Of a stretch of DNA of 49,788 nt, positions 10,865 to 48,477 are shown one piece after another. The notes under the pieces were generated by a model. The model searched no databases. It saw only the letters and a program-made list of their open reading frames with translations, and was not told where the DNA came from. Origin of the DNA: Escherichia phage LL5; the sequence record NC_047985.1; one strand, given 5' to 3'. The position numbers and the translations under genes were made by a program. Each line of letters opens with the position of its first letter. The first letter of the stretch is position 1.

Positions 10865-12151
10865 ATGAGCGACAAGGTAAAGGCCATTACTAAAGAAGAT
10901 GGTTACAACGAAATTTTCGGATCTAAAGATGTAGCGTTTAGGCCAAATGCTTTTTACATGCAAAGTGCGGCATTTAAAACGTTATCGCAATTTTATGAAG
11001 AAGATGGAATGGCGCGGCGCATTGTCGATGTTATTCCCGAAGAAATGGTAACGCCTGGTTTTAAAGTTGACGGCGTGAAAAATGAAAAGTCTTTTAAATC
11101 GCGTTGGGATGAATTGCGATTAAACGCTAAAATTATTGATGCGCTTTCATGGTCGCGTTTATTTGGCGGTTCTGCAATTCTTGCTGTTGTTGCTGATAAC
11201 AGAATGCTGAAATCACCTGTAAAGCCTGGTGCACAACTTGAAGATATTCGCGTATATGATCGCTATCAGATCACCATTCAGGAACGTGAAACTAATGCGC
11301 GGAGTGTTCGTTACGGTGAGCCAAAACTTTATAAGATCTCACCTGGCGGAGATATACCGGAATTCTTTGTTCATTACTCGCGTATTTGCATCATTGATGG
11401 TGAGCGCGTATCGAATGAAAAACGCAGTCAAAATGATGGTTGGGGCGCAAGCATTTTAAACAAGCGTTTGATTGAGGCGATTATTGATTATAACTATTGC
11501 CATGAATTAGCAACGCAATTGCTACGCAGAAAACAACAAGCAGTATGGAAAGCGCGTGATCTGGCTTTGATGTGCGACGATGAAGAAGGGCGCTATGCGG
11601 CGCGTTTGCGTTTGGCTCAGGTTGATGACGAAAGCGGAGTTGGTAAGGCAATTGGTATTGATGCCACCGATGAAGAATATGAGGTTCTAAATTCTGACGT
11701 TTCCGGCGTTCCAGAGTTCTTACAGGAAAAGATTGATCGAATTGTTGCACTAACTGGCATTCATGAAATCATCCTCAAAAATAAGAACACTGGCGGCGTT
11801 TCAGCGAGTCAAAACACGGCGCTAGAGACTTTCTATAAGTTAATTGATCGCAAGCGCGGAGAGGATTACAAGCCGATTCTTGAATTCCTTTTGCCGTTCA
11901 TGATCTCAGAAGCGGAATGGTCTATTGAATTCGAACCGTTAAGCGTTCCGAGTGATAAGGACAAAGCTGAAATTATGGCTAAGAACGTTGAATCTGTTGT
12001 AAAATTGAAAGCTGAACAGGCAATTAATCTCAAAGAAACAAGAGACACTTTGCGATCCATTTGTCCAGATCTTAAAATTATGGACAATGACAACATTGAA
12101 TTGCCAGAGCCGGAAGATTTAGATCCAGAGCCAGGGCAAGAGGGGGATTGA
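10865..12151 (+). CDS. portal protein
   Basis: 428 aa immediately after large terminase; GGGGG SD; acidic C-terminus. Confidence 0.8.
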   Translation: MSDKVKAITKEDGYNEIFGSKDVAFRPNAFYMQSAAFKTLSQFYEEDGMARRIVDVIPEEMVTPGFKVDGVKNEKSFKSRWDELRLNAKIIDALSWSRLFGGSAILAVVADNRMLKSPVKPGAQLEDIRVYDRYQITIQERETNARSVRYGEPKLYKISPGGDIPEFFVHYSRICIIDGERVSNEKRSQNDGWGASILNKRLIEAIIDYNYCHELATQLLRRKQQAVWKARDLALMCDDEEGRYAARLRLAQVDDESGVGKAIGIDATDEEYEVLNSDVSGVPEFLQEKIDRIVALTGIHEIILKNKNTGGVSASQNTALETFYKLIDRKRGEDYKPILEFLLPFMISEAEWSIEFEPLSVPSDKDKAEIMAKNVESVVKLKAEQAINLKETRDTLRSICPDLKIMDNDNIELPEPEDLDPEPGQEGD

Positions 12152-12155
12152 ATAA

Positions 12156-12827
12156 ATGATGTTTCCCGATATGACAGAGAGCGACGTTGAAAAGGCGCTT
12201 AATGATCTGGCGGTTGATATCACTGAAAACAAAGCTGATGTAGAGGCGGCAATTGCCGCCTTTATGTTGCTGGTTTACGGGTTCGCCGTTAGTGCATACA
12301 AATACCACACTCGCCAATTTATCAGAATGGCAAAGCAAACAGGAAGCGCAAATAATCGATCCGTTATCCTTCTGATTGGTGGCGTTTACGGAAATATGAA
12401 TGAACGTTGGTTCAATTCAAAATACATAACCTGGCGATCACTTATTGAGGCATCCGTAAGGAAATTTGCGTATAATGTGCTTGATGATTGGGAAGTGCAA
12501 CAGCGTTTAAATGAGTTACGCGAGCAAGCAGAAACAAGAGCGCAGATCCGAAAGCGTCTAAGAAAATATAAGGCGTGGGCTAAAAATAGGGCGTCTGGTT
12601 TTGTTGGTTCGTGGTATTCCGTGTTAATGTATCAACGCGTGGTTGATACAGGAGTTACCCATTATATTTGGCGTACTCAGGAAGATAACATGGTTAGACC
12701 TGAACACGCTAAATTGGACATGAAACGGATCTCATTGGCAATAAAGCACATATTCCCAGGGCAGGAATATAATTGTCGCTGTTGGGCGCAACCGGATTGG
12801 GAAACAGAGCAAGAGGTATATTTATGA
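12156..12827 (+). CDS. head morphogenesis protein (Mu F / SPP1 gp7-like)
   Basis: C-terminal motif VRPEHAKLDMK...PGQEYNCRCWAQP. Confidence 0.8.
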   Translation: MMFPDMTESDVEKALNDLAVDITENKADVEAAIAAFMLLVYGFAVSAYKYHTRQFIRMAKQTGSANNRSVILLIGGVYGNMNERWFNSKYITWRSLIEASVRKFAYNVLDDWEVQQRLNELREQAETRAQIRKRLRKYKAWAKNRASGFVGSWYSVLMYQRVVDTGVTHYIWRTQEDNMVRPEHAKLDMKRISLAIKHIFPGQEYNCRCWAQPDWETEQEVYL

Positions 12828-13933
12828 AGAAGGTGCAACGTTTTGATAGTGTCAGAGTAAAGGCGCATTTTGATGAACACGGCTTTTTAGTAGATCGGCC
12901 TATTGTGGCGCGAATTGGTTTGCAGATTTATCAAACGCCATACGGCGAGCGCAGAGAATTCAGGCCAGCAAGTGAAGTGTTTAAAGCTGATAGCTTGGCG
13001 ACTTACGCAGGTAAACCAATCACAGTAGGTCACGTAACAGTAACGCCGGAAAATGCGCGTGATGTTGTAGTTGGTACTTGTTCAGGGGCTGGCATTCCAA
13101 ATGGGATCGGAGTTGAGGCGCCTTTGAATATTTACGCAAAGGATGCAATTGAAAGCGCGAAGAAAAAACAAACGGCTGAAATTAGCGTGGGCTATACGTC
13201 AATTGATATTGATAAGCCTGGTTATGGATCTAATGAAACTGGTGAATACATCTTTGAAGAAGATCTAAAAGAAGATGAGCAGCCGCCTGAAGGATGGGTA
13301 AAATTTGATGCACTGCAAACAAGCATTAGTGTTAACCATATTGCGTTAGTGTTTAAGGGTCGCGCTGGAATTGCAAAATTGAATCTTGATAGCGAGCAAG
13401 AATTCCCGTATGATATCGACGTTAAATTAAATAAAGAGGACGAGGTTATGACCGTTAAAATTAAACTTGATGGTGCTGTTGAATTTGACGTACCAAAAGA
13501 AGTTGCTACTTTTATCGAAACCGTGAAAGCAGACGCTACAGCGGCAAAAACTAAAGCCGATAGCCTGGAAGCAGAGCGCGATGCTCTACAGGCGAAAGTT
13601 GACGGCATTCCGGCGCAGATTGAAGAAGCCGTTAAAAAGGCAAAAGCTGACGCTGATGAACATGCCGCACTGGTCGCTACCGCTTCCGAAGTTGGCGTAA
13701 AATGCGACGGACTAACAGCCAAAGAAATTAAGATCGCATATGTGAAAGAGGTCATGGGTAATGACATTAGCGAAAAGGCTGATGCATATATTGATACCGC
13801 TTTTGATATCGCGAAAGAATCTGATAAAATGGCGGCTCAACGTATCGCATTAAAAGGCGATGCAGCAAAAAACAAACAGGATGCAGCGGAAACCATTCTT
13901 GATCCTTCCGCACGTCTGAATAAAGCTAAGTAA
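12824..13933 (+). CDS. putative head scaffolding protein
   Basis: 369 aa between head morphogenesis gene and capsid; Ala/Lys/Glu-rich predicted coiled-coil C-terminal half. Confidence 0.5.
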   Translation: MKKVQRFDSVRVKAHFDEHGFLVDRPIVARIGLQIYQTPYGERREFRPASEVFKADSLATYAGKPITVGHVTVTPENARDVVVGTCSGAGIPNGIGVEAPLNIYAKDAIESAKKKQTAEISVGYTSIDIDKPGYGSNETGEYIFEEDLKEDEQPPEGWVKFDALQTSISVNHIALVFKGRAGIAKLNLDSEQEFPYDIDVKLNKEDEVMTVKIKLDGAVEFDVPKEVATFIETVKADATAAKTKADSLEAERDALQAKVDGIPAQIEEAVKKAKADADEHAALVATASEVGVKCDGLTAKEIKIAYVKEVMGNDISEKADAYIDTAFDIAKESDKMAAQRIALKGDAAKNKQDAAETILDPSARLNKAK

Positions 13934-13945
13934 GGAGAAAATATT

Positions 13946-14425
13946 ATGGCTCAGATTTCAGCAAGTTATCATGTTGCAATGGCTCGCGCCTTGCCTGGTC
14001 AAGTTTCTGACACTTCCGCGTATAACATCGACGGCGCTTGTGTTCTTGATGGTGATGCCGGATCAACAATTTATGTTGGCGTTGGTGTTCAACATGGCGG
14101 AGTTAGCGCAAGCGGTGATAAATTAATTAAGGCTATGGCAGCGTCTGGTAATGCTTATGGTGTTGCTATTCGATCCAACTTCCAGACCACATCTAAAGAT
14201 GGTCGCATGGTTTATGAGGCTGGTAGCGGAATTAACGTAATGACTAAAGGTCGCGTTTGGATGTTATCTGTAGAATCAGAAGCGCCAGAATTCAAAACAC
14301 CTATCAAACTTGATAATTCAGGACAGGTTGATTTAACGTCTGGATCAATTGAAACTACTTGGATCGCAACTGGAGACTTTACGAAATTCCAAGATCTAAA
14401 ACTCGTTGAGGTTCAACTGGTATAA
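13946..14425 (+). CDS. structural protein, tandem paralog A (decoration-like, putative)
   Basis: shares YNIDG, GRVW and C-terminal ...VQL with next ORF. Confidence 0.5.
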   Translation: MAQISASYHVAMARALPGQVSDTSAYNIDGACVLDGDAGSTIYVGVGVQHGGVSASGDKLIKAMAASGNAYGVAIRSNFQTTSKDGRMVYEAGSGINVMTKGRVWMLSVESEAPEFKTPIKLDNSGQVDLTSGSIETTWIATGDFTKFQDLKLVEVQLV

Positions 14426-14430
14426 TAATA

Positions 14431-14455
14431 AGGCCGGATTATTCCGGCCTTTTAT
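14431..14455 (+). terminator. hairpin plus T-tract between paralogs
   Basis: perfect AGGCCGGATT/AATCCGGCCT palindrome then TTTTAT. Confidence 0.55.
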
Positions 14456-14468
14456 ATATGGTGGTTTT

Positions 14469-14909
14469 ATGTCTGATTACGGTTCTATAATAGGTATAGT
14501 TGAAAATGGGTGCTTGGTAGATTCAAGCCTTTATAATATAGATGGCTCGCCAGTTATGGATGTTTCAGCCGTGATAGGTAATGCCGTATGTGTTGATCGC
14601 ATATCTTGCGGTTACAAAATAATCAGCCACAATTTTAATGAAAACTCAAATCATTACGGAATCGTTACGCGTGATTATATGGATTTTTGCAAAGAATATT
14701 ACGACGCCGGAGATCCGGTCAACGTAATAACTCATGGTCGAATTTGGGTAATCACTCAGGACGAACATGATATTCCATCGTATAAAGATCCTGTTTTTGT
14801 TAAAGACAATGGCTCTATATCAACAAGTGGATTTCCTACCAGTTGGTTTTTTACTGGCGAGTACGTAAGATATTCACACGGGTATATTTTACTATCAGTC
14901 CAGTTGTAG
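14469..14909 (+). CDS. structural protein, tandem paralog B
   Basis: paralog of 13946-14425; GGTGG SD. Confidence 0.5.
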   Translation: MSDYGSIIGIVENGCLVDSSLYNIDGSPVMDVSAVIGNAVCVDRISCGYKIISHNFNENSNHYGIVTRDYMDFCKEYYDAGDPVNVITHGRIWVITQDEHDIPSYKDPVFVKDNGSISTSGFPTSWFFTGEYVRYSHGYILLSVQL

Positions 14910-14958
14910 CGTGCTAACACAAAAAACACTTGAACGTTTAACAAAAAATGCTATATTA

Positions 14959-14983
14959 AAGCCGTTATTATGACGGCTTTTCT
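14959..14983 (+). terminator. hairpin plus T-tract upstream of capsid gene
   Basis: GCCGT-TATTATG-ACGGC then TTTTCT. Confidence 0.45.
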
Positions 14984-14998
14984 ATGAGGGAAAATATT

Positions 14999-15973
14999 AT
15001 GTCTAAAGAAATGAAATATGATGAGTTTGAAGCAAACGTGATCGCCAACCATATGCAGTTACGCGGCGCTAAAAACGACGCATCTGATATGGGTATTTGG
15101 ACGGCTCAAGAGCTTCATAAAATTAAGGCTCAAGCCTATGAAAAAGAATATCCGGCAGGTTCCGCACTGCGTGTATTCCCTGTAACGTCCGAGCTTTCCG
15201 ATACTGATAAAACTTTTGAATACCAGACTTTCGACAAAGTAGGTCACGCAAAAATCATTGCTGATTACACTGATGATCTGCCAACTGTTGACGCGCTGAT
15301 GACTTCTGAATTTGGTAAAGTGTTCCGCCTGGGTAATGCGTTCCTGATTTCCATTGACGAAATCAAAGAAGGTCAACGCACTGGCAAGAGCCTTTCCACT
15401 CGCAAGGCAAACGCCGCACAGAATGCGCATGATCAGCTTGTAAACCACCTGGTTTTCAGAGGTTCTAAACCGCACAAAATTATCAGTGTGTTTGAACATC
15501 CGAACATCACAACTATCGACTCAGGCGGCTGGAATAACGCAACAGGTACGACTAAGAATCCTGAACGTGCACAGGATGAATTAGAGCAAGCGATTGAAAA
15601 AATCGAAACGCTGACCAACGGGCAGCACCGAGCTACTCACATTCTGATCCCGCCGTCAATGCGTAAAGTTCTGATGGTTCGTATGCCGGAAACAACCATG
15701 AGCTATCTTGATTATTTCAAGCAGCAGAATGGCGGTATCACTATCGAATCCATTTCCGAGCTTGAAGATATCGACGGCTCAGGCACTAAAGCTGCACTGG
15801 TTTACGAAAAAGATCCGATGAATATGAGCATCGAAATTCCAGAAGCGTTTAACATGCTGACCGCGCAGCCTAAAGACCTGCATTTCAAAGTACCTTGTAC
15901 TTCTAAGTGTACTGGTCTGACGATTTACCGTCCGTTGACGCTGGTTCTAATTAAAGGTCTTGTGAACGGCTAA
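14999..15973 (+). CDS. major capsid protein
   Basis: 324 aa, largest head-module ORF after scaffold; GAGGG SD; followed by strong terminator. Confidence 0.75.
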   Translation: MSKEMKYDEFEANVIANHMQLRGAKNDASDMGIWTAQELHKIKAQAYEKEYPAGSALRVFPVTSELSDTDKTFEYQTFDKVGHAKIIADYTDDLPTVDALMTSEFGKVFRLGNAFLISIDEIKEGQRTGKSLSTRKANAAQNAHDQLVNHLVFRGSKPHKIISVFEHPNITTIDSGGWNNATGTTKNPERAQDELEQAIEKIETLTNGQHRATHILIPPSMRKVLMVRMPETTMSYLDYFKQQNGGITIESISELEDIDGSGTKAALVYEKDPMNMSIEIPEAFNMLTAQPKDLHFKVPCTSKCTGLTIYRPLTLVLIKGLVNG

Positions 15974-15989
15974 TAATTAGATTAATATA

Positions 15990-16016
15990 GGGAACCGTTA
16001 AAAGGTTCCCTTTTTT
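15990..16016 (+). terminator. rho-independent terminator after capsid gene
   Basis: GGGAACC-GTTAAAA-GGTTCCC then TTTTTT. Confidence 0.7.
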
Positions 16017-16034
16017 ATTTCTGGAGAAAAACAA

Positions 16035-16307
16035 ATGGCTAAAGAAAAAGAAATTACACTTGTTAACACTGGCGTTGCACTGATTATTATTGATCGCGTT
16101 GACGTTATGCCAGGTAAAGAAATTACCGTTGCGGAAAGCGTGTTAGAGCGTCAAGGCACTAAAGCACTTATGGCAGAAGGTAAGCTAACAATCAAAGATA
16201 ACAGCGATCTCAATGCTGAAATCGTTGAAGCGTTTAAGAGCAAGCGCAAAAAAGATCCGAACGAAGGCAAGACAAAAAAAGAGCTTGAGGACGGCGGCGA
16301 GTATTAA
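16035..16307 (+). CDS. hypothetical head-associated protein (90 aa)
   Basis: ORF with GGAG SD between capsid and connector genes. Confidence 0.45.
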   Translation: MAKEKEITLVNTGVALIIIDRVDVMPGKEITVAESVLERQGTKALMAEGKLTIKDNSDLNAEIVEAFKSKRKKDPNEGKTKKELEDGGEY

Positions 16308-16313
16308 TTAGAA

Positions 16314-16340
16314 AAGGCGCTCATGTAGCGCCTTTTTTAT
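16314..16340 (+). terminator. hairpin plus T-tract
   Basis: GGCGC-TCATGTA-GCGCC then TTTTTT. Confidence 0.6.
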
Positions 16341-16353
16341 TATGGGGGTTATT

Positions 16354-16773
16354 ATGGTTGATGAAATTTATGGTGATATTGAGATCCTAGAGCAAATTTA
16401 TAAAATCGCGCCAGCGTTCAAAAAAGTTGATCCTGAATTGATTCAGGCATGGATTGAACTGGCTAAAGATTTCGTTTGCGAAAAGCATTTCAAAGACAAA
16501 TATTTCCGCGCTGTTGCTCTTTACACTTTGCACCTGATGACTCTTGACGGAGCTATGAAACAGGAAAGTGAGAGCGTAGAAAGCTACTCGCATCGTATAG
16601 CATCATTTTCCCTGACTGGTGAGTTTTCGCAAACGTTCAGCAAAGTTAGCGACGACACAAGCGGTAACACGTTGCGCCAAACTCCGTGGGGTAAAATGTA
16701 CGAAGTTCTCAACAAGAAAAAAGGCGGCGGATTTGGCCTTACAACTGCATTTCATCGGAGGTGCTCACGATGA
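16354..16773 (+). CDS. head-tail connector / head completion protein (putative)
   Basis: positional call; GGGGG SD. Confidence 0.4.
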
Positions 16774-17141
16774 ATTATGAACAAATCAGATCTATGGCAT
16801 CGGCTGGAATTAATTTTTTTAGCGATGAAACTGGTGAATTTGATTGCATTACTCAACCTGGAAGCGTTGAAATTGTTGGCGGTATTGAGGTTGAAAAACC
16901 TGAAATAAAGGTGAAGATTAAAGGTCTTGTGAGAAAACCACGGACGCGAGAAGTTGACGGAGAGGTAATTAGAGTTACCGACAAGTTAGGCATTTTTAAT
17001 GCTGATGTAGAGCTTAAAAACGGATATCAGATTGATATAGACGGAGAGCGTTATGTTATGGTTGAAACAAGACCAATCAGACCAACAAGCATTACCGTTG
17101 CTTACCGTCCAATAATGCGGAGGATTTCGGTTCATGGCTGA
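16770..17141 (+). CDS. head-tail adaptor protein (putative)
   Basis: positional call; GGAGG SD 9 nt upstream. Confidence 0.4.
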
Positions 17142-17574
17142 CTATTCGATCCGAGAATTTCATGGCAATGTTGACAAATGGATCGAGCAAGTAGAAAGCG
17201 GATTGAATGATGTGATTCAGATTTTTGGTGAAAAGGTTCACGGCGCATTAGTTGATATTGCGCCAGTGGACACAGGCAGATTCAAAGCCAGTATGCAGAT
17301 CACAGCAAACAAGCCGCCTCTTTACGCGCTCAATCAATATGATCCTGATGGTGAGAAAACAAAGGCGGAAGGTCGCAGGACGCTTTATGCTTTATTGCAT
17401 GGCGGCGGCGCTATTAAATCAATATACTTTTCCAATATGCTGATTTACGCTAATGCTCTTGAATATGGTCATTCAAAGCAAGCGCCAGCGGGTGTATTTG
17501 GTATCGTTGCGATCCGGTTGCGCTCTTACATGGCGGAAGCGATAAGGGAGGCGAGAAAGAAAAATGCACTATGA
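17134..17574 (+). CDS. tail completion protein (HK97 gp10-like)
   Basis: VDTGRFKAS near N-terminal third and ALEYGHSKQAPAG C-terminal motif. Confidence 0.55.
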   Translation: MADYSIREFHGNVDKWIEQVESGLNDVIQIFGEKVHGALVDIAPVDTGRFKASMQITANKPPLYALNQYDPDGEKTKAEGRRTLYALLHGGGAIKSIYFSNMLIYANALEYGHSKQAPAGVFGIVAIRLRSYMAEAIREARKKNAL

Positions 17575-18087
17575 ATTATCTGTTGCGGCAAGAATGGCGC
17601 TGGCTCAAGAATACGAAAGCGAATATATGATCGCTTATGAAAACGTTGAATTTACTCCACCAAAAGGCGGAGGCATTTGGCTTAAATATGACTACAAAGA
17701 AGCAGATACAATAATTCATGATCTGAAAAGGAAATGCATTAGCTATATTGGAATGGTTCAGATCGGAATTGAATTCCCGCCAGGCTCAGGAATTGATAAG
17801 GCTCGCAAGCTGGCAAAAAATATTGCTGATTTCTTTGAAGATGGTAAAATGATCTGAAAAGGAAATGCATTAGCTATATTGGAATGGTTCAGATCGGAAT
17901 TGAATTCCCGCCAGGCTCAGGAATTGATAAGGCTCGCAAGCTGGCAAAAAATATTGCTGATTTCTTTGAAGATGGTAAAATGCTTGCGAATGGTTATATT
18001 TCAGAAGGTGCAAAAGTGCATCCAGTTCAGAAATCAGAATCAGGCTGGTTTTATCCAGTACGTTTTTATGTTCGTTATGATGGTTAA
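17564..18087 (+). pseudogene. tail terminator-like gene split by a perfect 131-bp tandem duplication
   Basis: ORFs 17564-17857 and 17884-18087 share MVQIGIEFPPGSGIDKARKLAKNIADFFEDGKM; removing one copy restores a 130-aa ORF. Confidence 0.6.
17718..17982 (+). repeat. perfect 131-bp direct tandem duplication (2 copies plus shared ATG)
   Basis: 17718-17848 identical to 17849-17979 by eye. Confidence 0.9.
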
Positions 18088-18101
18088 TAAAGGGGGCTAT
18101 T

Positions 18102-18764
18102 ATGCACTTACCTAACGGATCACAGATTTTTATTGAAAACACGCGCGGCGTGTCAGTAAGCGCAACCAACGTAAGCAATGCAACAAAACCGGAATTTACG
18201 CTTGAAAGCGGCGGTGATGGATTCCAGAAAGGTGATTACATTATCGTTACCTCCTCAAGTTGGGGTAAATTGCTTGATCGCGTTCTGCGTGTGACGGCGG
18301 CTGAATCAACTAAGGTTACTGTTGAAGGTATCGACACAACCGATACTAACGTTTTTCCGGCTGGATCTGTAACTGCGAGCTTTGCGAAAATAAACGGTTG
18401 GACAGAGATCCCATGCGTACAGGACTTGGGGCAGGACGGCGGCGAGCAACAGTATTACAATTACCAGTGCTTGAACGATGACCAGGAGCAGCAGTTACCA
18501 ACCTATAAAAGCGCGGTATCACTGACTTACACATTTGCGCATGAATACGATAACCCGATTTATCCGCTATTGCGTAAGGCTGACGAATCCGGCGACGTTA
18601 AAGCATTGCGCATGTATGTACCAAAAGCGAAAGAAATGCGCCTTTGGGCAGGTGTGCTTTCCTTCAACGAGATCCCACAAACGGCGGTAAACGAAATGGA
18701 AACCGTTTCTTTGTCGGTGTCCCTGAAAGGTCGCTTTACTTTCCTCCCTGCTAACCAGGATTAA
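18102..18764 (+). CDS. major tail protein
   Basis: 220 aa immediately upstream of G/G-T chaperone and tape measure; GGGGG SD; terminator follows. Confidence 0.65.
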   Translation: MHLPNGSQIFIENTRGVSVSATNVSNATKPEFTLESGGDGFQKGDYIIVTSSSWGKLLDRVLRVTAAESTKVTVEGIDTTDTNVFPAGSVTASFAKINGWTEIPCVQDLGQDGGEQQYYNYQCLNDDQEQQLPTYKSAVSLTYTFAHEYDNPIYPLLRKADESGDVKALRMYVPKAKEMRLWAGVLSFNEIPQTAVNEMETVSLSVSLKGRFTFLPANQD

Positions 18765-18770
18765 TATTAA

Positions 18771-18795
18771 GGGGCGCATTGCGTCCCTTTTTTAT
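18771..18795 (+). terminator. rho-independent terminator after major tail gene
   Basis: GGGGCGC..GCGTCCC then TTTTTT. Confidence 0.6.
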
Positions 18796-18841
18796 TTGAT
18801 GTAATATCACCTCAATATTTAACCACTCAGGAGAAATGACA

Positions 18842-19156
18842 ATGGCTAAAATGAAATTGACTCTTGCCCCGCTTCCAGATTTCAAACTTCCAGTTAAATT
18901 TGTATTGCCGGATGGTAACGAGCAAAAAATTGTGTTTACCGTTAAGCATAAAAAGGCCAGCGAGATTCAAGAGCTTTACCAGAAAGAAGGTATTAAAGAT
19001 CCTGAATTCATCATGAATGTTGCCGTGGGTTGGGATCTGGAGGAAGAATTCAACGAAGAAAACGCGCAACTGTTAGTTGATTATTATCCTGGCGCGGCGC
19101 TGGCTCTTATGGGATCTTATTTAAGTGCGCTGGCAGGGCAACGCGTAAAAAACTAA
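18842..19156 (+). CDS. tail assembly chaperone G
   Basis: 104 aa ORF upstream of tape measure; AGGAG SD; ends just after slippery site. Confidence 0.7.
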   Translation: MAKMKLTLAPLPDFKLPVKFVLPDGNEQKIVFTVKHKKASEIQELYQKEGIKDPEFIMNVAVGWDLEEEFNEENAQLLVDYYPGAALALMGSYLSALAGQRVKN

Positions 19157-19190
19157 AACGGGCGGTTTATCTGTATTATCAGAAACCGCC
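19147..19190 (+). other. candidate -1 programmed frameshift site with stimulatory hairpin
   Basis: heptamer AAAAAAC in X_XXY_YYZ register of G; GGCGGTTT/AAACCGCC 8-bp stem. Confidence 0.55.
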
Positions 19191-19473
19191 GACAGACGCA
19201 GAATTGCAAGCCGTAGGATTAACACGCGCAGACTATGAAGGAGAAGATCCGCCAGAGGTCATATTTGATGAAAGTATGATGCAATCATGGGATATATTTT
19301 GCGCGATGGGTACACAGTGGCGTAGTGCTGGCGCTGGTGCTTACGGTTTTGATTATAATGTTTTGCCTATGTTATTCAGAATCTATAAAATAGACGATGA
19401 AGAAATGGCCTTAAATGACTTGCGCATCATGGAACAAAAAGCACTGGAAATGATGCAAGCAAATAACAAATAA
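19147..19473 (+). CDS. T-frame extension of G-T fusion (-1 frame, no own start)
   Basis: -1 frame open from slippery heptamer A_AAA_AAC (19147-19153) to 19473; stem-loop 19161-19190 lies 7 nt downstream. Confidence 0.6.
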   Translation, partial: KKLKRAVYLYYQKPPTDAELQAVGLTRADYEGEDPPEVIFDESMMQSWDIFCAMGTQWRSAGAGAYGFDYNVLPMLFRIYKIDDEEMALNDLRIMEQKALEMMQANNK

Positions 19474-19497
19474 AGCGCCTACGGGCGCTTTTTTTAT
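19474..19497 (+). terminator. hairpin plus T-tract before tape measure
   Basis: GCGCC-TACG-GGCGC then 7 T. Confidence 0.6.
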
Positions 19498-19510
19498 GAG
19501 GGTAAAATAT

Positions 19511-22420
19511 ATGGCTGAACAATTTGCAGGTTTAACACTTGGCGTTAACGTCGAGCAGTTAAACAGGGCTGTAAAGTCATTGCAGGACTTTAAAAAAGCA
19601 AACGACGAAGCAAAGAAAGGCGTTGAGAGCTTTGTTAATGAGGAAGAAATTGCAAAGCAAAGAGCAAAACAATTAGCTGATGAATTGGCGAAACAGAGCC
19701 GTGAATTTAAACGCATTCAGGACACTGTTGATCCGACAGCGGCGAAAATGCGCAAGCTATCTCAGGCAGCAAGAGATCTTGATAAGCTATGGCAAAAGGG
19801 CCTTGTTCCCGATGAAACGTTTTTCCAGTTGGGGAGTATGCTGGAAACTCAGATCAGTAAGCTGGAGCGTAATAAAAAGGCGTTAACGGAAGAAGGCCGC
19901 GCAGCACTTGAGGAATCAAAAGCCAAAGATAAAGCAGCGTTAGCCGGAAAAACTTTCCTTGCGGATCTGGAATCGCAAGCAGCCGCTCTTGGCAAAACAA
20001 AAGCCGAATTACTGGAAATGAAAGCGGCGCAACTTGGCGTAAGTGCTCAGGCAGCGCCATTCATTGCACAGCTTAAAGCGCAAGAAAAACAGATGAATTT
20101 AACCGGAATTAGCGCAGGGCAATATAACCAGGCAATGCGAATGCTTCCGGCTCAGATCACTGACGTTGTAACGTCGCTGGCTTCCGGTATGCCTGTTTGG
20201 TTGGTTGCAATCCAGCAGGGTGGACAGATTAAAGATTCTTTCGGCGGCGTTGGTAATACGTTTAAAGTGCTGTTGTCGTTTCTGAATCCGGTAAACGTTG
20301 GCCTTGCCGCATTAGCCGTTTCAATGGGTGCTCTTGTTAAGGCTGGTTATGATGCGTATAAGTCGCAACGTGACTTGCAAGAGGCGTTGGTGCTGACTGG
20401 TGGCTATGCTGGCACAAGCGGCGCACAGTTCGATAAGCTGGCGCAGGACATTAATAACAGCACTGATGCGACGATAGGAAGCATCCGATCCATCGCAACA
20501 GAGCTTGCAAAATCCGGCAAATTCACGATTGATCAGATTAAATCGATCACAAAGACTACCGCTCAGTGGTCAACGGTAACGGGTGAATCAAGCGACAAGA
20601 TAACCGATTACTTTAATAAGATTGCTGGCGATCCGGTTAAAGGTCTTGCAGAGCTAAACGAGCAATTCAACTTTTTAAGCGAAGGGCAGTTAACTTATAT
20701 TGCAGACCTGGAGGAAACGAAAGGAAAAACGGAAGCAGTGACGGCGGCGACAAAGTTATTTGCTGATGTTATGGATCAGAGATTAGCTAAACTGGCAGAC
20801 TCCGCAACGCCATTAGAAAAGATGTGGACGAACATTAAAAAATGGGCGTCAGATGCATGGGGTTGGGTTGGAGATCACACGCTGGCGGCGCTTAACCTGA
20901 TTATTGACGTTGTAGCCGGAACCGTTGAGCAGGTTCGTTACTTGCTTAATCAGGGTGATATTCTCATTGGTGAGTTTATCGTGTCTGCAACAAAGGCTAT
21001 GCAAAAAATACCTGGTCTTGATGGAGTTGGTGATTCAGTAATTGCACAGCAGCAACAGATCATTAATAAATCAAAAGAGCAAAACAAAGAGCTATTAAAA
21101 TCAATTGCCGAACGTAACGAGCGAGTCAAAAAAGGCGAGCAGGGTTACATTGACATGATAAAAAATCGTGCGGCGGTTGAACAGCAATATGCTACTAAAA
21201 CAAAGGATAATATCAGGAAGGAAGCCGAGGAATTAGCCAAACGCGATAAAAAGCAAAAGGCTGAAAAAGTTAAGGTATCGGCTGGCGATAAGCTGGAAGA
21301 ACAATATCAGCGTGATATCCTGGCGTTAGAAACTCAATTAAGAGTTTTGAAAGAGCACAAGACGATCACAGATACCATAAGCCAGCAACGTAAATCTTTA
21401 TGGGCTGAACAAGCTAAAATTCAGATTTTGCAAGAAGCCTCAACAAAACGGCAACTTACTGATGAAGAAAAAAGCATTTTAGCCAACAAAGATAAGATCC
21501 TAGCGATGGCTGAACAAAAAGCTATTTTAGGAGATCAGATTGTTGCACAAACGCGCCTTAATCAGTTGCAAGATAGCTCAATCAAGTTTATCCAGCAGCA
21601 GAAAGCAGCAACAGAAGCACTAGCCAAAACCAGAGGGTTAAGTGAACGTGAAGCAGCAAGAGCGGCGGAACGTGCAAAGGTTGAGGCTGATTATCTTGCC
21701 AAAGGAGGCAAGGAAGGAGATCCGCAACTTAAAGCCATGATGGATGCCTTAGACAACCGCTATAAAGAGGAAGATGATAAACGCGCTGATTGGTTAGCTG
21801 GCGCTAAAAATGCCTTTGCGGAGTATGGCGAGGAAGCAATGAACATGTATGATAATATCGGCAACATTGCGAGCCAGGCGCTAAACGGCCTATCGCAACA
21901 AATGGCTGATTTTTTGACTACTGGACAAGCCAACTTTAAAGACTTTGCAAAATCGATCATTAGCCTTATTGTTCAGATGATCACAAAGATGGTTATCTTC
22001 AATAGCATTTCCGGCATGATGGGCGGCTCAACATGGACGCTTGGAAGCCTTTTAAGCGGTGCTGGTTTTTCTGGCGGCGGTTATACTGGCGACGGTGGCA
22101 AATATGATCCGGCTGGAGTTGTTCATAAAGGTGAGTTTGTTTTTACCAAAGAGGCAACGCAAAGGATCGGAGCCAAAAACCTGTATCGCATGATGCGAGG
22201 TTATGCAAACGGCGGTCAAGTAGGAAGCGTGACAACTGGCGGCGCTGGCATCAATCGCGGTGCATCGCAATTTGCATTTGGTGATATCAACGTTAACATT
22301 GACAACGGTCAAGATCCAAAAGGGATGGAAACTGGTATTAAGATGATTTTCACCGAAATGATTCAACGTTCATGCTCGCAAGGTGGCGAGGTTTATAATT
22401 TTGTTCATGGGAGGGCTTAA
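19511..22420 (+). CDS. tail tape measure protein
   Basis: 969 aa, coiled-coil-rich with internal hydrophobic segments; GAGGG SD. Confidence 0.85.
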   Translation: MAEQFAGLTLGVNVEQLNRAVKSLQDFKKANDEAKKGVESFVNEEEIAKQRAKQLADELAKQSREFKRIQDTVDPTAAKMRKLSQAARDLDKLWQKGLVPDETFFQLGSMLETQISKLERNKKALTEEGRAALEESKAKDKAALAGKTFLADLESQAAALGKTKAELLEMKAAQLGVSAQAAPFIAQLKAQEKQMNLTGISAGQYNQAMRMLPAQITDVVTSLASGMPVWLVAIQQGGQIKDSFGGVGNTFKVLLSFLNPVNVGLAALAVSMGALVKAGYDAYKSQRDLQEALVLTGGYAGTSGAQFDKLAQDINNSTDATIGSIRSIATELAKSGKFTIDQIKSITKTTAQWSTVTGESSDKITDYFNKIAGDPVKGLAELNEQFNFLSEGQLTYIADLEETKGKTEAVTAATKLFADVMDQRLAKLADSATPLEKMWTNIKKWASDAWGWVGDHTLAALNLIIDVVAGTVEQVRYLLNQGDILIGEFIVSATKAMQKIPGLDGVGDSVIAQQQQIINKSKEQNKELLKSIAERNERVKKGEQGYIDMIKNRAAVEQQYATKTKDNIRKEAEELAKRDKKQKAEKVKVSAGDKLEEQYQRDILALETQLRVLKEHKTITDTISQQRKSLWAEQAKIQILQEASTKRQLTDEEKSILANKDKILAMAEQKAILGDQIVAQTRLNQLQDSSIKFIQQQKAATEALAKTRGLSEREAARAAERAKVEADYLAKGGKEGDPQLKAMMDALDNRYKEEDDKRADWLAGAKNAFAEYGEEAMNMYDNIGNIASQALNGLSQQMADFLTTGQANFKDFAKSIISLIVQMITKMVIFNSISGMMGGSTWTLGSLLSGAGFSGGGYTGDGGKYDPAGVVHKGEFVFTKEATQRIGAKNLYRMMRGYANGGQVGSVTTGGAGINRGASQFAFGDINVNIDNGQDPKGMETGIKMIFTEMIQRSCSQGGEVYNFVHGRA

Positions 22421-22767
22421 TGTTAGATGAATTTACCTGGTGTACGCAGATTCAGAGCGGCGGCGGTGTAATGACAACTACCAATAACGACAGGGAAGTT
22501 GTTTTTGGTAACGGTTATCGCCAAAAGGCATCTTCTGGATTTAACACGGAGCGGAGGGAGTTTTCTATTGTTTACGCTGGAACTGATTATAAAAAAGTGA
22601 AAGCGTTCATGACGGATCACAGATTAAAGCCTTTCTTGTGGAGGATGCCGGATGGTGATTTAGGTTTGTTTACGGTTAAAGCTGGAACGGTAGGGCTAAC
22701 GCCAATAAGCCCAACCGCTCAGGAAGTCAAAGCAACTTTTACGGAAGAATTTACATCCATGCGATAA
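22420..22767 (+). CDS. minor tail protein (lambda gpM-like)
   Basis: FGNGYRQKA and LKPFLWRMP resemble lambda M FGDGYSQRA / WKSFLWTPP. Confidence 0.8.
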   Translation: MLDEFTWCTQIQSGGGVMTTTNNDREVVFGNGYRQKASSGFNTERREFSIVYAGTDYKKVKAFMTDHRLKPFLWRMPDGDLGLFTVKAGTVGLTPISPTAQEVKATFTEEFTSMR

Positions 22768-31852: not shown

Positions 31853-34363
31853 TTACTTAGTAAGCTGAACAAGCATTGCTTTCATTTCAGCCATTGCGGT
31901 TTTCATTTCAGTAATTTCTTCTTTCATTTCCTCATTGTCTTTTTGTAACTCTTGAATCACAACAATAAGATCAGAAACAACAGCGCGATCATTAACGTTC
32001 ATGATTTCGAATTCATCACCATTTTCATCTGTTGCAGTGCCGCCAAAGAAAACGTAAGTATCATCTATTTCAGCCATTTGTTGCGCAAGATAACCACGCT
32101 GCAAAACATTATTTCCCTTATATGAAAACTCCATTACACCAATCTGCTTAACTCGATCCCACGCACCGACCTTTGGTTTTTCAAAGCGATCTTTAATCCT
32201 AACGTCAGACCCCTGAATTGCCACCACTCCTAGCGGCGTATTCATTATGCCGTCATCCCTAATTGAATAACTCAAACTTGAGCCATTCGATTTTGTAAGT
32301 TGCCAAGAGTAATATGTAATACCATCAACAGCGGTAATGATGTAGTTTGTTACACCGCAATTTGAATTTGCCAGATAGGAAAGCTGGTTAATTTTGTATG
32401 AATCATTTGTTTGCTGATCTGCAAGTTTTTGCACAGCCGCAACATCGGAACCACCAGTACCATAAAAAGCCCTTGAAAGCGCATTGCCTGGAATAGTAAG
32501 GTTTCCATCAGATCCAAAAATCATAACAGATGTATTATCACCAACAGCACTTATTTTTGCTTCGGTTATCCCATTTCCTATTGTTTGCGATGCATAAAAA
32601 TCAGCGCTAAAGTTGTCAGCAGTTCCAACTTTATATTTAGATTGAATCTTACCTCCAGTAACAAAAGTTCCCTGTTGTGGCAATTCTTTATCACCATTAA
32701 TAACGCTCCATGAAGTATTAGCAGCAATAAATCCGCCAAATGCTCGAATAACCCAAACACCAACAAAGTTTTTAGGAATTATGTTGTTTGAAATAGCATA
32801 TCTGCCATATACAGAATCGCTTCTTTCTGCGTTAAAATTAGTTGTAGCATTATTACGTATTCTACCAAAAGTCCCATCATTCGGTAAAAATGTTTCCTCT
32901 GTAGAAGATGCATATCCGAAAGCTCCAGATACAGTTCTAGGGGATGGCATCCATACTTTACCACTAGTATCATTAGCAAATGTACCGATTATATTTGGTG
33001 CAGCCGCTTGATAAATACGCCCATCTTCTGATGAAGTACCACCATCACCACGACCGAAAAGGCTTGTAACTGATCCAGGTTGAACACCGTTTCTATCAGG
33101 TACACGGAAAGTTGTAGTTCCGTCGCCTGTAGAATATCTGCCCCTTTTTTCTACATCAGCAAGCCAATCAGAATCACTAATCGGGCTTAATAGTTGTGCA
33201 TAAGACCATAACTCTGGATAATCTTCTCTTGATAGTAGTTGTCCGTCAGATGTTATCTCATACGGCTGTATATATGCTCGTGAATCTCTTAGGTGAAAAT
33301 CACCCACACCATAATTCATAACGCCATTCATAGTTGGGCCAAGAATCCCAGAATTTATTCTATTTTCCACCCATCGCACTGTTGTGGCATCATAATCGTT
33401 AACTGGGTCACCAGCTAGAGGAGTTGGTCCTATAGGCCGAACGTTAAGCCATGCCGCAGCGCGATCCGCGATACCATCAAGATTATCTTTCTTTAGGAAT
33501 GCTTCAGATATTGATGGAACTTTTAAATTTGCCCTCGCTTCTTCAATGTTTGCTATATCATTAAGATTCTGATCTTTATGCAACATATTGTCTGGATTAA
33601 CCTGTTGCGCCCATTGGCGAGCTTCATCACGCGCAGTTTCAGCGCCAGACTTTGCATTATCAGCACCAACCTTTGATTGCTCTGCGGCTAATTGTGCGTT
33701 TTCAGCTTCATCACGCGCGTCTAATGCTTCATTTTTAATTCCGGTTATCTCAGTAACGGCAGAATCTTTAATCTGTTGCGTTTGGTTTTTTATTGCGTCC
33801 GTGTCTGCCTTAATCTGATTGGTTTCAGCAATAGCGGAATCTTTAATCTGTTGCGTTTCATTAACAGCGGCATCTTTAATTTGTTGAGTTTCATTTACAG
33901 CAGAATCCTTAATCTGTTGCGTATCATTTTTTAATTGTTCGGTTGCAACTTTATCAGCGGCAACTTGTGCGGCATCAGCATGAACCTTATTGATTAAATC
34001 CTGCAATTCTTTCAGATCAAAATTCCTGAAAAAGTCAAGAGCTTCCTCAATGACCGTTTCTTTGCTTTGATAATAACGCAGCGTTTCCGCTACATCTTGC
34101 GCCATTCCGTCAACAGTTAACGAGTCATTCAACAGGATCACATATTTACCATCAGAAACAACAGCGCCATCAGTGCTAATAGCCTTCATTTCAGTGTCGC
34201 TAACAATTTCACTAATAACGGCAAGCTGAATAACTGGTTGCTCAAGAAATACAATGGTTGCGCCAGTGCGAATTAATGACAAAGGTTCACGCCATTTTGT
34301 TCCAGTGCCAGTAATAACGCCTTGTGCGTCCATAGCGGCGGTTCCAATACGATATAAAGCCAT
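31853..34363 (-). CDS. tail fibre with C-terminal intramolecular chaperone (peptidase S74-like) domain
   Basis: 836 aa; C-terminus SDVRIKDRF...coiled-coil [26 protein letters not shown]; 11-aa repeats in N-terminal part. Confidence 0.8.
33750..33935 (-). repeat. imperfect 33-bp tandem repeats inside tail fibre gene
   Basis: about 5 copies of GAATCTTTAATCTGTTGCGTTTCATTAACAGCG-like units. Confidence 0.7.
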
Positions 34364-42133: not shown

Positions 42134-42358
42134 ATGAGGGACTTTCTTTTAATGGCGCAAAACTCTTTCGGAGGTGCAACGGTAGTTGGATCTTTTACTG
42201 GTGAGTTTTTGCTTGCACTTGCTACGTTTATTTTGTTCGCTATTTTCGGCTGTTGGGGCGCATGGCTGAAATGGCGTGATAGTAAAGCGATCCGAGAGGC
42301 TTTAGATTCAGGGGATTTAAAAACAGCGCTTAATCTACGGCAGAAAGAGAGGGTATAA
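42134..42358 (+). CDS. holin (dual-start, two TM segments)
   Basis: GAGGA SD; dual-start Met pattern MRDFLLMAQ; two hydrophobic helices; directly upstream of endolysin. Confidence 0.7.
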   Translation: MRDFLLMAQNSFGGATVVGSFTGEFLLALATFILFAIFGCWGAWLKWRDSKAIREALDSGDLKTALNLRQKERV

Positions 42359-42798
42359 TGACAATCAAGAAAGGTATAGCCGCCACCGTCACAGGGGCGG
42401 CTTTAATGTTGGCATCGCCTTTGATTGAAGAAATTGAGGGCGTAAAGTATAAGCCTTACAAGGATATTGCTGGAATCTGGACGGTATGCCACGGCATTAC
42501 CGGAAAGGATGTGATTCTTGGAAAGGAATATACCAGGAGAGAATGTGACGCGCTATTAGCAAAGCATATGAAAGTAGCGGCTGACGCTGTTGATAAGGCG
42601 GTTAATGTTGAAATTCCTTTATCAATGCGAGCGGCTTTATACTCATTTACTTTCAATGCTGGTACTGGTGCGTTTCGTAAGTCAACCATGCTGAAAAAGA
42701 TCAACAATGGTGATCTATGGGGCGGTTGTGGCGAGCTATGGAACTGGACATATTACAGGAACCCTAAAACGGGTAAAAGGAAAAATCAAGAGGATTGA
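42358..42798 (+). CDS. endolysin (GH24 lysozyme, possible N-terminal SAR anchor)
   Basis: catalytic region EEIEGVKYKPYKDIAGIWTVCHGIT; N-terminal Gly/Ala-rich weakly hydrophobic segment. Confidence 0.9.
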   Translation: MTIKKGIAATVTGAALMLASPLIEEIEGVKYKPYKDIAGIWTVCHGITGKDVILGKEYTRRECDALLAKHMKVAADAVDKAVNVEIPLSMRAALYSFTFNAGTGAFRKSTMLKKINNGDLWGGCGELWNWTYYRNPKTGKRKNQED

Positions 42799-42844
42799 AG
42801 AACCGCCGCGCCGTCGAATATAAATATTGTGTGAGGGATCTTAA

Positions 42845-47675: not shown

Positions 47676-47731
47676 TTTTGATTCTCAATTTTGTTTGTGT
47701 GAAAGTATGATACCAATCAGAGCGATATAGT

Positions 47732-47752
47732 TTTTAACTATTCGTGCTATTT
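47732..47752 (-). promoter_or_regulatory. conserved box copy 13 (- strand AAATAGCACGAATAGTTAAAA)
   Basis: upstream ORF reads through the box in frame (C-terminal NSTNS) and stops at its TAA. Confidence 0.65.
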
Positions 47753-47901
47753 ACAGCGATAAACGGATATCCGGTTAAATCTGCGTTGCGGTATCTGGCA
47801 GACCTTACCCAACAGCCCGACTTACTCATAATCAACGCGTTTTTGTGGCGAAGGTTTACGCGGTAAATCCTTCCTGTTTTGATGTTTTTGAAATAGGTCA
47901 T
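47734..47901 (-). CDS. hypothetical protein (55 aa)
   Basis: GAGG SD; ATG overlaps stop of upstream gene. Confidence 0.4.
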   Translation of the reverse strand: MTYFKNIKTGRIYRVNLRHKNALIMSKSGCWVRSARYRNADLTGYPFIAVNSTNS

Positions 47902-48400: not shown

Positions 48401-48456
48401 TTTAAATTCTCCGGTTCGTTTCGATGAATGTATTATGCCAAAACAAACCGGATCGC

Positions 48457-48477
48457 TTTTAACAAAAAGTGCTATTT
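48457..48477 (-). promoter_or_regulatory. conserved box copy 14 (- strand AAATAGCACTTTTTGTTAAAA)
   Basis: TAG is stop of ORF 48472-48684; GCATAAT motif in downstream region. Confidence 0.7.

What the first reader, a model, noticed from the sequence alone, without database searches (positions are those of the whole stretch)
17718..17982. Perfect 131-bp tandem duplication splits a tail-terminator-like gene
The segment 17718-17848 is repeated exactly at 17849-17979; both copies start with ATG and are followed by a third ATG. Because 131 is not a multiple of 3, the upstream reading frame (17564-17857) hits a TGA two codons into the second copy, and the downstream part (17884-18087) is only readable from an internal ATG. 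Both ORFs therefore contain the same 33-residue block MVQIGIEFPPGSGIDKARKLAKNIADFFEDGKM. Removing one copy restores a single 130-aa ORF at the position where a tail terminator (lambda U-like) is expected, just upstream of the major tail gene. An essential morphogenesis gene split this way points to an assembly artefact, a very recent duplication, or a population with copy-number heterogeneity.
Basis: seen in the sequence. Interest (0 to 1): 0.65.

Follow-up and report, generated by a model that had tools for sequence, protein, structure and literature searches.

The report
Untrimmed contig overlap splits tail terminator
The perfect 131-bp tandem duplication really is in the deposited sequence of E. 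coli phage LL5, but it is almost certainly left over from how the circular 454/Newbler assembly was closed, so the phage most likely has one ordinary, intact 130-residue tail-terminator gene.

Summary
Positions 17718-17848 and 17849-17979 are identical. The duplication frameshifts a tail-terminator gene (PF13554, PHROG 179) into a 97-aa and a 67-aa ORF. Removing one copy restores a 130-aa ORF that is 98% identical to TLS gp41.

The window is Escherichia phage LL5 (MH491968): it has the same length (49,788 bp) and G+C as the published genome. [quoted passage not shown] It was then "reopened to be syntenic" with TLS.

An independent Logan assembly of the same run (SRR9134807) matches the window with 0 mismatches over 8.7 kb. 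It carries only one 131-bp copy and an intact 130-aa gene. It also runs unbroken through the locus, which a k=31 graph could not do if the junction k-mers were present at normal depth.

All 49 full-length relatives have one copy, and the junction was found in no public collection searched.

Verdict: this is an assembly-closure artefact, an end overlap that was not trimmed (about 0.93). The true genome is probably 49,657 bp, and the two deposited fragment proteins (AWY04343.1, AWY04344.1) are spurious. Biological interest is low. The practical value is a correction to a GenBank/RefSeq record.

The parts
17718..17848 (+). Copy 1 of the 131-bp unit. It lies inside the tail-terminator coding sequence (codons about 52-96).
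   Evidence: TRF period 131, 100% identity; exact string identity to 17849-17979.
17849..17979 (+). Copy 2 of the 131-bp unit. This is the redundant copy; removing either copy restores the gene.
   Evidence: It is absent from the Logan assembly of SRR9134807, where L005 1-3982 and 3849-7705 map to window 13868-17851 and 17849-21706 and overlap by 134 nt. It is also absent from 49 relatives.
17980..17982 (+). ATG that extends the period-131 identity by 3 bp. This is either microhomology or a chance match at the repeat boundary.
   Evidence: The chance of 3 or more bp of total extension is 0.055 at this base composition.
17822..17878 (+). Span of the 27 junction-specific 31-mers (k-mer starts 17822-17848). 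These are the only sequence in the window that a single-copy genome would not contain.
   Evidence: The junction 20-mer GGTAAAATGATCTGAAAAGG was not found in IMG/VR, and it gave only one chance match each, with unrelated flanks, in the JGI metagenome and GTDB genome collections.
17564..17857 (+). N-terminal fragment ORF of 97 aa: residues 1-96 of the terminator plus Ile. It is deposited as LL5 gp41 (AWY04343.1 / YP_009802543.1).
   Evidence: It matches PF13554 profile positions 5-93 of 127. Exact look-up names it 'Minor tail protein / tail terminator [Escherichia phage LL5]'.
17884..18087 (+). C-terminal fragment ORF of 67 aa: residues 64-130 of the terminator, read from internal Met64. It is deposited as LL5 gp42 (AWY04344.1 / YP_009802544.1). 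No convincing Shine-Dalgarno sequence precedes it (CTATATTGGAATG).
   Evidence: It matches PF13554 profile positions 62-124 of 127. Exact look-up.
17564..18087 (+). The real gene once one copy is removed: 17564-17848 joined to 17980-18087, 393 nt, encoding a 130-aa tail terminator.
   Evidence: It is 100% identical to the 130-aa product called on the Logan contig and 98% identical to TLS gp41 and to the Sephi301i terminator. It matches PF13554 at E=3.8e-21, PHROG 179 at E=3.3e-36 and PDB 9jlf_D at E=5.3e-46 over residues 1-129.
17134..17574 (+). Upstream neighbour: tail completion / Neck1 protein (LL5 gp40).
   Evidence: PHROG 169 at E=1e-49. The exact protein occurs only on Logan contig SRR9134807_8.
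18102..18764 (+). Downstream neighbour: major tail / tail tube protein (LL5 gp43).
   Evidence: PF08813 at E=3e-67 and PHROG 584 at E=9e-96. The exact protein occurs only on Logan contig SRR9134807_8.

Best explanation
The duplication is an artefact of how the assembly was closed, not a feature of the phage.

LL5 is a T1-like, headful-packaging phage, so its terminally redundant and permuted genome assembles as a circle. The single Newbler contig therefore began and ended with the same stretch of genome, here 131 bp lying inside the tail-terminator gene. When the contig was declared circular and rotated to start where TLS starts, both copies of that overlap were kept. What had been a terminal redundancy of the contig became an internal, perfect, head-to-tail duplication.

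Because 131 is not a multiple of 3, the gene caller then saw two ORFs, which were deposited as gp41 and gp42. The real phage most likely carries one copy, an intact 130-aa tail terminator and a 49,657-bp unique genome.

Shown: the repeat itself, the single-copy independent assembly, and the published closing and reopening procedure. Inferred: that the original contig ends lay exactly at this 131-bp unit.
For: 1. Identity of the window. Run SRR9134807 leads to the LL5 genome announcement. LL5 is reported as 49,788 bp with 42.5% G+C, and the window is 49,788 bp with 42.46% G+C.

2. Assembly method. The paper reports 454 FLX Titanium reads assembled with Newbler 2.5.3 into a single contig at 19.9x. 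[quoted passage not shown]

3. Gene numbering. The paper lists minor tail proteins gp41 and gp42 directly before tail tube gp43. Counting ORFs from capsid gp36 (14984-15973) puts gp41 at 17564-17857 and gp42 at 17884-18087, one gene more than TLS has there. Exact look-up confirms both fragments are LL5 proteins.

4. Independent assembly of the same reads. Logan contig SRR9134807_8 (27,228 bp) matches window 13868-22765 with 0 mismatches. It differs only at three 1-nt A-run lengths and by having a single 131-bp copy, with a 130-aa PF13554 gene called.

5. De Bruijn graph logic. With the duplication, the k=31 graph branches at both ends of the unit (17717, 17821, 17848, 17952). Without it there are no branches. 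The unbroken Logan contig therefore implies that the 27 junction k-mers were absent or rare (plus an inference about how the assembler behaves).

6. Circularity. Logan contig SRR9134807_2 runs from window 49788 straight into window 1, so the reads do assemble as a circle.

7. Relatives. All 49 phage records that cover the 401-nt query do so within 270 bp, meaning one copy. The exact 130-aa sequence also occurs on 5 Logan/ENA contigs.

8. Junction searches. The junction 20-mer was not found in IMG/VR, and only chance matches turned up in JGI metagenomes and GTDB genomes.

9. Biology. The terminator homologue is a full-length ordered virion component in solved structures (9jlf_D, aligned 1-129). 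LL5 grows to high titre and has a normal tail of about 150 nm.

10. Other residual error. The record carries at least one other likely 454 error, an A4 versus A5 run that truncates the endolysin.

11. Known problem. The Phage Annotation Guide warns that contigs may extend beyond 100% of the genome and that redundancies can end up internal to the contig.
Against: No individual reads were inspected. A de Bruijn assembler cannot count copies of a 131-bp repeat, so the argument rests on contig continuity and on my understanding of how low-coverage links are pruned.

The repeat boundary carries a 3-bp ATG match. This is typical of real microhomology-mediated duplications and is expected by chance only about 5.5% of the time.

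454 Titanium reads of about 400 nt could have spanned a real 265-bp duplication, so Newbler could in principle have assembled a genuine one.

The paper does not state the length or position of the identical contig ends.
Confidence: 0.93

Rival explanations
1. A genuine, very recent microhomology-mediated tandem duplication (replication slippage or illegitimate recombination between two ATG triplets 131 bp apart) is present in a minority of genomes in the sequenced lysate. Wild-type co-infecting genomes would keep these defective genomes going. The junction reads would have influenced where or how the Newbler contig ended.
For: There is a 3-bp ATG at both boundaries, with chance probability about 0.055. 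The copies are perfectly identical, so the event would be recent. A low-frequency junction would be pruned from the Logan graph, so it is compatible with the unbroken single-copy contig.
Against: A minority variant should not become the consensus of a single-contig assembly. The paper's description of identical contig ends already explains the repeat without any biology. The junction is seen in no other collection. Defective genomes carrying a frameshift in a tail gene would be selected against at every passage (established knowledge of lambda gpU-type terminators).
Confidence: 0.04
2. A genuine duplication is fixed in LL5. The phage would survive because the tail terminator works as two fragments (1-97 and 64-130, the second made by re-initiation after the TGA), or because the terminator is dispensable in this lineage.
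For: The two ORFs together cover the whole PF13554 profile, with a 33-residue overlap. The TGA at 17855-17857 lies 27 nt before the ATG at 17884, a distance at which termination-reinitiation is conceivable (sequence). Only about six terminator copies are needed per virion (general knowledge).
Against: The independent assembly of the same run shows one copy and an unbranched path. There is no usable Shine-Dalgarno sequence before 17884. All 49 relatives keep an uninterrupted gene of about 130 aa at 93-99% nucleotide identity. The solved homologue is a single full-length chain. The only other 67-aa 'terminator' in the databases, from Salmonella phage 36, results from single-base deletions typical of sequencing error, not from a tolerated split.
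Confidence: 0.02
3. A different kind of artefact: a local mis-assembly or an editing slip (for example a copy-paste error during manual reopening or polishing) that is unrelated to the contig ends.
For: It predicts the same outcome as the best explanation: a perfect tandem copy that is absent from the reads. The record was clearly curated or polished relative to the raw k-mer assembly, because it keeps three A-runs correct where the Logan contig is one base short at each, which breaks the capsid and DUF4054 ORFs there.
Against: The published statement about identical contig ends offers a specific and sufficient cause. Nothing distinguishes this variant from the best explanation without the original Newbler output.
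Confidence: 0.01

Closest known systems
Untrimmed terminal overlap of a circularly assembled phage contig (a known assembly artefact; see Phage Annotation Guide, PMC8785237)
   Same: The repeat is perfect and directly adjacent. Its length is below one read length. The genome is circularly permuted, reported as closed from identical contig ends and then rotated. The repeat is absent from an independent assembly of the same reads and from all relatives.
   Different: The best-known cases are k-mer-length repeats left at the two ends of a record, such as 127 bp with SPAdes (my own knowledge, not checked here). In LL5 the overlap comes from an overlap-layout assembler (Newbler), so it has an arbitrary length of 131 bp. 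It was also moved to the interior by re-orientation, where it disrupts a gene and looks like a biological duplication.
Tail terminator proteins of siphophages (PF13554 Phage_tail_terminator_5 / PHROG 179; TLS gp41; PDB 9jlf chain D; functional analogue of lambda gpU)
   Same: The collapsed 130-aa product matches the family over its full length. It sits between the tail-completion and tail-tube genes and is 98% identical to TLS gp41.
   Different: Nothing once one copy is removed. As deposited, the gene is split into two overlapping fragments.
Microhomology-mediated tandem duplications in phage genomes (classical spontaneous duplications, for example in T4 rII or lambda; general knowledge)
   Same: The arrangement is head to tail, with a 3-bp identical triplet at the boundaries and perfect copy identity.
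   Different: A real event should leave junction reads in the raw data and would have to be compatible with viability. Here the independent assembly lacks the junction, and the event frameshifts a conserved virion gene.

Membership tests
Assembly-closure artefact (untrimmed contig-end overlap) | The two copies are 100% identical and directly adjacent | tested here: met
   TRF 100% matches with 0 indels; string identity.
Assembly-closure artefact (untrimmed contig-end overlap) | The genome assembled as a circle with redundant contig ends and was then re-oriented | tested here: met
   Stated in the LL5 announcement. Logan contig _2 joins window 49788 to window 1.
Assembly-closure artefact (untrimmed contig-end overlap) | The repeat is absent from an independent assembly of the same read set | tested here: met
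   The Logan SRR9134807_8 contig has a single copy, 0 mismatches elsewhere and is unbroken through the locus.
Assembly-closure artefact (untrimmed contig-end overlap) | No raw read contains the copy-copy junction, and read depth over the unit is 1x | not testable with these tools
   Raw reads cannot be accessed here. There is only the indirect inference from contig continuity.
Assembly-closure artefact (untrimmed contig-end overlap) | The original contig started and ended with exactly this unit | not testable with these tools
   The Newbler output is not available, and the paper gives no length or position for the identical ends.
Tail terminator, PF13554 / PHROG 179 | Sequence match above the curated threshold over the whole domain | tested here: met
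   The collapsed product scores 76 bits against a 27-bit cut-off, covering profile 5-123 of 127, and matches PHROG 179 at E=3.3e-36. The deposited fragments cover only 5-93 and 62-124.
Tail terminator, PF13554 / PHROG 179 | Gene position between the tail-completion gene and the major tail (tube) gene | tested here: met
   The order is the same in TLS and Sephi301i.
Tail terminator, PF13554 / PHROG 179 | A homologue is seen as the terminator in a solved virion or tail structure | tested here: met
   PDB 9jlf_D / 9kmh / 9l0e 'Terminator protein', E=5.3e-46, query residues 1-129 aligned to chain residues 1-128.
Tail terminator, PF13554 / PHROG 179 | Forms a hexameric ring that caps the tail tube and stops polymerisation | not testable with these tools
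   This is a biochemical and structural property, inferred only from homology.
Genuine microhomology-mediated tandem duplication | Short identical sequence at both repeat boundaries | tested here: inconclusive
   A 3-bp ATG is present, but the chance probability is 0.055.
Genuine microhomology-mediated tandem duplication | The junction is present in the sequenced DNA | tested here: not met
   The independent assembly of SRR9134807 lacks it and is unbranched at the locus. This is assembly-level evidence, not read-level.

The most novel reading that the evidence does not exclude
The duplication could be real in at least part of the LL5 population. It would be a spontaneous ATG-microhomology tandem duplication inside an essential tail gene, carried either as a defective sub-population or made viable by reconstitution of the terminator from two overlapping fragments.
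Probability: 0.05. Interest if true: 0.35.

Novelty: not a real feature. Interest (0 to 1): 0.07.

Why it matters
Biologically it matters little, because LL5 very probably has an ordinary intact tail terminator.

Practically, the GenBank and RefSeq records of a phage used in a commercial product (PreforPro) appear to contain four errors:
- 131 extra bases, giving 49,788 bp instead of 49,657 bp.
- Two spurious fragment proteins (AWY04343.1 / YP_009802543.1 and AWY04344.1 / YP_009802544.1) in place of one 130-aa terminator.
- A gene count that is one too high.
- Probably a frameshifted endolysin C-terminus.

Such fragments spread into protein clusters and family annotations; both sit in 90%-identity clusters alongside full-length terminators. 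The case also illustrates that a contig-end overlap, once the genome has been rotated, can pass for a gene-disrupting biological duplication.

Tried and rejected
- **Junction search in public collections.** I searched the 20-mer in IMG/VR, JGI metagenomes and GTDB genomes. There were 0 hits in IMG/VR and 1 hit in each of the other two. Reading the flanks showed both were unrelated chance matches.
- **Exact look-up of the 97-aa fragment on contigs.** It is not on record.
- **Look-up of contigs encoding the collapsed 130-aa protein.** I judged it unnecessary: the exact flanking proteins occur only on the SRR9134807 contig, so the other contigs carrying the exact 130-aa protein must be different phages.
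- **MH491968 in the local phage collection.** The record is not there, so its feature table could not be read directly. The annotation was reconstructed from the paper's gene numbers and from exact protein look-up.
- **Exact portal protein.** It is not on record in Logan. Window 10975-13868, which includes most of the portal gene, lies between the two Logan contigs examined.
- **k-mer-length overlap idea.** I considered a de Bruijn assembler overlap (SPAdes 127, MEGAHIT 141). I rejected it because 131 fits none of the default values I recall (from memory, not checked here) and because the paper names Newbler.
- **Salmonella phage 36.** I checked whether its 67-aa 'terminator' shows that a split is tolerated. 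It does not: the record has two single-base deletions and no duplication.
- **Searches and predictions not run.** I did not run the large protein-homology searches or a structure prediction. The family assignment was already unambiguous from Pfam, PHROGs and PDB, and these steps would not bear on the question of artefact versus real duplication.

Full report
**1. The observation**

The repeat is exactly as described. Tandem Repeats Finder reports 17718-17982 with period 131, 2.0 copies, 100% matches, no indels and score 530. A direct comparison shows that 17718-17848 equals 17849-17979. The period-131 identity ends at 17718 on the left and 17982 on the right, so it is two units plus a 3-bp ATG. 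It is the only long exact repeat in the window.

ORF 17564-17857 (97 aa) runs into copy 2 and stops at TGA 17855-17857. ORF 17884-18087 (67 aa) starts at an internal ATG. The two share the 33-residue block M64-M96. Removing one copy yields a 130-aa ORF.

**2. What the gene is**

The collapsed product matches Pfam PF13554 (Phage_tail_terminator_5) at 76 bits against a 27-bit cut-off, covering profile positions 5-123 of 127. It matches PHROG 179 'tail terminator' at E=3.3e-36. It aligns from residue 1 to 129 with PDB 9jlf chain D, 'Terminator protein', at E=5.3e-46.

The neighbouring genes are, in order:
- capsid;
- DUF7444-type small protein;
- DUF4054 virion protein;
- head closure;
- tail completion (17134-17574);
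- terminator;
- major tail/tube (18102-18764);
- tape-measure chaperones;
- tape measure.

The two deposited fragments cover profile positions 5-93 and 62-124 respectively. They are two overlapping pieces of one domain, not two genes.

**3. What the window is**

The window is a complete Tlsvirus genome (Drexlerviridae, T1-like). It is 93-98% identical to TLS, Sephi301i, MBBL140 and others, but is not itself in the local phage collection.

Looking up the exact flanking proteins led to a Logan assembly of SRA run SRR9134807. That run number occurs in one paper, the genome announcement of enterotoxigenic E. coli siphophage LL5, GenBank MH491968. LL5 is reported as 49,788 bp with 42.5% G+C. The window is 49,788 bp with 42.46% G+C.

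Exact-sequence look-up confirms that the 97-aa and 67-aa ORFs are deposited LL5 proteins AWY04343.1 / YP_009802543.1 and AWY04344.1 / YP_009802544.1. They are named 'Minor tail protein' or 'tail terminator' and lie on a 49,788-bp contig.

The paper lists 'minor tail proteins (gp41, gp42...)' immediately before 'tail tube protein (gp43)'. Counting ORFs from capsid gp36 gives gp41 = 17564-17857 and gp42 = 17884-18087, one gene more than TLS has between capsid and tube.

**4. How the duplication most likely arose**

The announcement states that 454 FLX Titanium reads were assembled with Newbler 2.5.3 into one contig at 19.9x. [quoted passage not shown] Suppose a contig has the form U-M-U and is treated as a circle without deleting one U. 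After rotation it becomes ...M-U-U-M..., which is exactly a perfect head-to-tail duplication in the interior of the record. The Phage Annotation Guide describes this class of problem: contigs extended beyond 100% of the genome, and redundancies that end up internal to the contig.

That the original contig ends were precisely this 131-bp unit is my inference. The paper does not give their length or position.

**5. Independent test with the same reads**

Logan contig SRR9134807_8 (27,228 bp) aligns to window 13868-22765 with zero mismatches. The only differences are three single-base A-run lengths (window 15807, 16420, 19155) and the presence of only one 131-bp unit. The two BLAST segments overlap by 134 nt in the contig, and a 130-aa PF13554 gene is called there. 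Its product is 100% identical to the collapsed window ORF.

A de Bruijn assembler cannot count copies of a repeat longer than k, so I checked the graph logic instead. With the duplication, the k=31 graph of this region branches at 17717, 17821, 17848 and 17952. Without it there are no branch points. The duplication adds 27 junction-specific 31-mers.

A contig that runs unbroken from the left flank through the unit into the right flank therefore implies that those k-mers were absent, or rare enough to be pruned. At about 20x coverage, a fixed duplication should give junction k-mers at flank-like depth. This last step rests on my knowledge of how such assemblers prune low-coverage links, not on a run.

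A second Logan contig (SRR9134807_2) joins window 49788 directly to window 1. This confirms the circular assembly and shows that the reopening point itself is clean.

**6. Comparative evidence**

All 49 phage records that cover the 401-nt query around the repeat do so within 270 bp, meaning one copy. TLS and Sephi301i annotate a single 393-nt 'tail terminator'.

The junction 20-mer was not found in IMG/VR. It occurs once in the JGI metagenome collection and once in the GTDB genome collection, each time with unrelated flanks, so these are chance matches.

The exact 130-aa sequence is found on five Logan/ENA contigs.

**7. Biological plausibility of a real duplication**

As deposited, the N-terminal fragment lacks residues 97-130. 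The C-terminal fragment has no credible ribosome-binding site: the sequence is CTATATTGGAATG, and the AAGGA upstream serves a two-codon ATG-CAT-TAG mini-ORF.

Terminators of this kind cap the tail tube and are required for head joining in lambda (established knowledge about gpU). LL5 grows to high titre and shows a normal flexible tail of about 150 nm.

One point favours a real event. The 3-bp ATG at the boundaries is typical of microhomology-mediated duplication, and its chance probability is 0.055 at this base composition. I weigh this as a modest likelihood ratio that is outweighed by sections 4-6.

The only other 67-aa 'terminator' in the databases is from Salmonella phage 36. It results from two single-base deletions upstream, a different kind of sequencing error, and does not show that a split is tolerated.

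**8. Assembly quality**

I mapped 83 TLS proteins onto the window. Only two genes change frame: the terminator, and the endolysin at 42358-42798.

The endolysin is 146 aa, against 164 aa in TLS. An A4 run replaces A5 at about 42774, and the conserved C-terminus KGLKNRRAVEYKYC continues in another frame. This looks like a residual 454 homopolymer error.

In the other direction, the deposited sequence keeps three A-runs at full length where the raw-k-mer Logan contig is one base short. Two of those shortfalls break the capsid and DUF4054 ORFs in the Logan contig. So the record was cleaner than the raw data, but not fully checked.

**9. Verdict**

A real minority duplication gets about 0.04, and a fixed and tolerated split about 0.02.

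The feature is not a real property of the phage. Its value is as a correction to MH491968 and its RefSeq copy: true length 49,657 bp, one 130-aa terminator instead of two fragments.

Read-level counting of junction reads in SRR9134807, or a 270-bp versus 401-bp PCR product, would settle it.

Noticed in passing
window 42358-42842 (endolysin, about 42774): The endolysin ORF is 146 aa, against 164 aa in TLS. A one-base shorter A-run (GGGT-AAAAGG versus GGGCAAAAAGG) shifts the conserved C-terminus (KGLKNRRAVEYKYC) into another frame. This is probably a residual 454 homopolymer error in the deposited record. The two Logan contigs I examined do not reach this region, so it could not be cross-checked.
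   Followed up: partly
window 15807, 16420, 19155 versus L005/L006: The Logan assembly of SRR9134807 is one A shorter than the window at three A-runs. Two of these break the major capsid and DUF4054 ORFs in the Logan contig, while the window keeps them intact. This is consistent with 454 homopolymer undercalls in the raw data.
   Followed up: yes
window 1338, 1750, 3968, 5043, 6348, 30278, 36096, 38554, 39878 (+ strand); 47726-49503 (4 copies in reverse orientation): A conserved box of about 22 nt, AAATAGCACTTTTTGTTAAAAC, recurs at least 12 times. It lies mostly between short early-region genes, and its orientation follows the direction of transcription. Several copies are followed by a GC-rich hairpin-like segment. 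It looks like a phage-specific promoter or regulatory motif of Tls-like phages.
   Followed up: no
window 33810-33929 (inside the minus-strand ORF 31853-34363, tail fibre): A 33-bp tandem repeat of 3.6 copies at 82% identity, in frame (11 codons per unit), lies within the tail-fibre gene. The central part of this gene (roughly TLS Stf residues 258-459) found no match in the window in the tblastn comparison.
   Followed up: no
L009 (Salmonella phage 36, KR296690.1 10842-11911): This 41,085-bp record also annotates a 67-aa terminator fragment starting at the same internal Met. The cause there is two single-base deletions (one in an A-run at the gene start, one at GTT to GT) that fuse and frameshift the tail-completion and terminator genes. 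It looks like sequencing error in another deposited Tlsvirus genome.
   Followed up: yes
window 49788 / 1 junction; L007: Logan contig SRR9134807_2 runs directly from the last base of the window into the first. The record's ends are therefore an arbitrary opening of a circular assembly chosen for synteny with TLS, not physical termini.
   Followed up: yes
OR786094.1 (hits H2, H88, H102): The record that covers the most of the window overall is labelled 'Streptococcus phage MBBL140', with host Streptococcus agalactiae. It is nonetheless a Tls-like enterobacterial siphophage, about 93-95% identical over most of the genome. The host label is implausible and may reflect contamination or mislabelling.
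   Followed up: no
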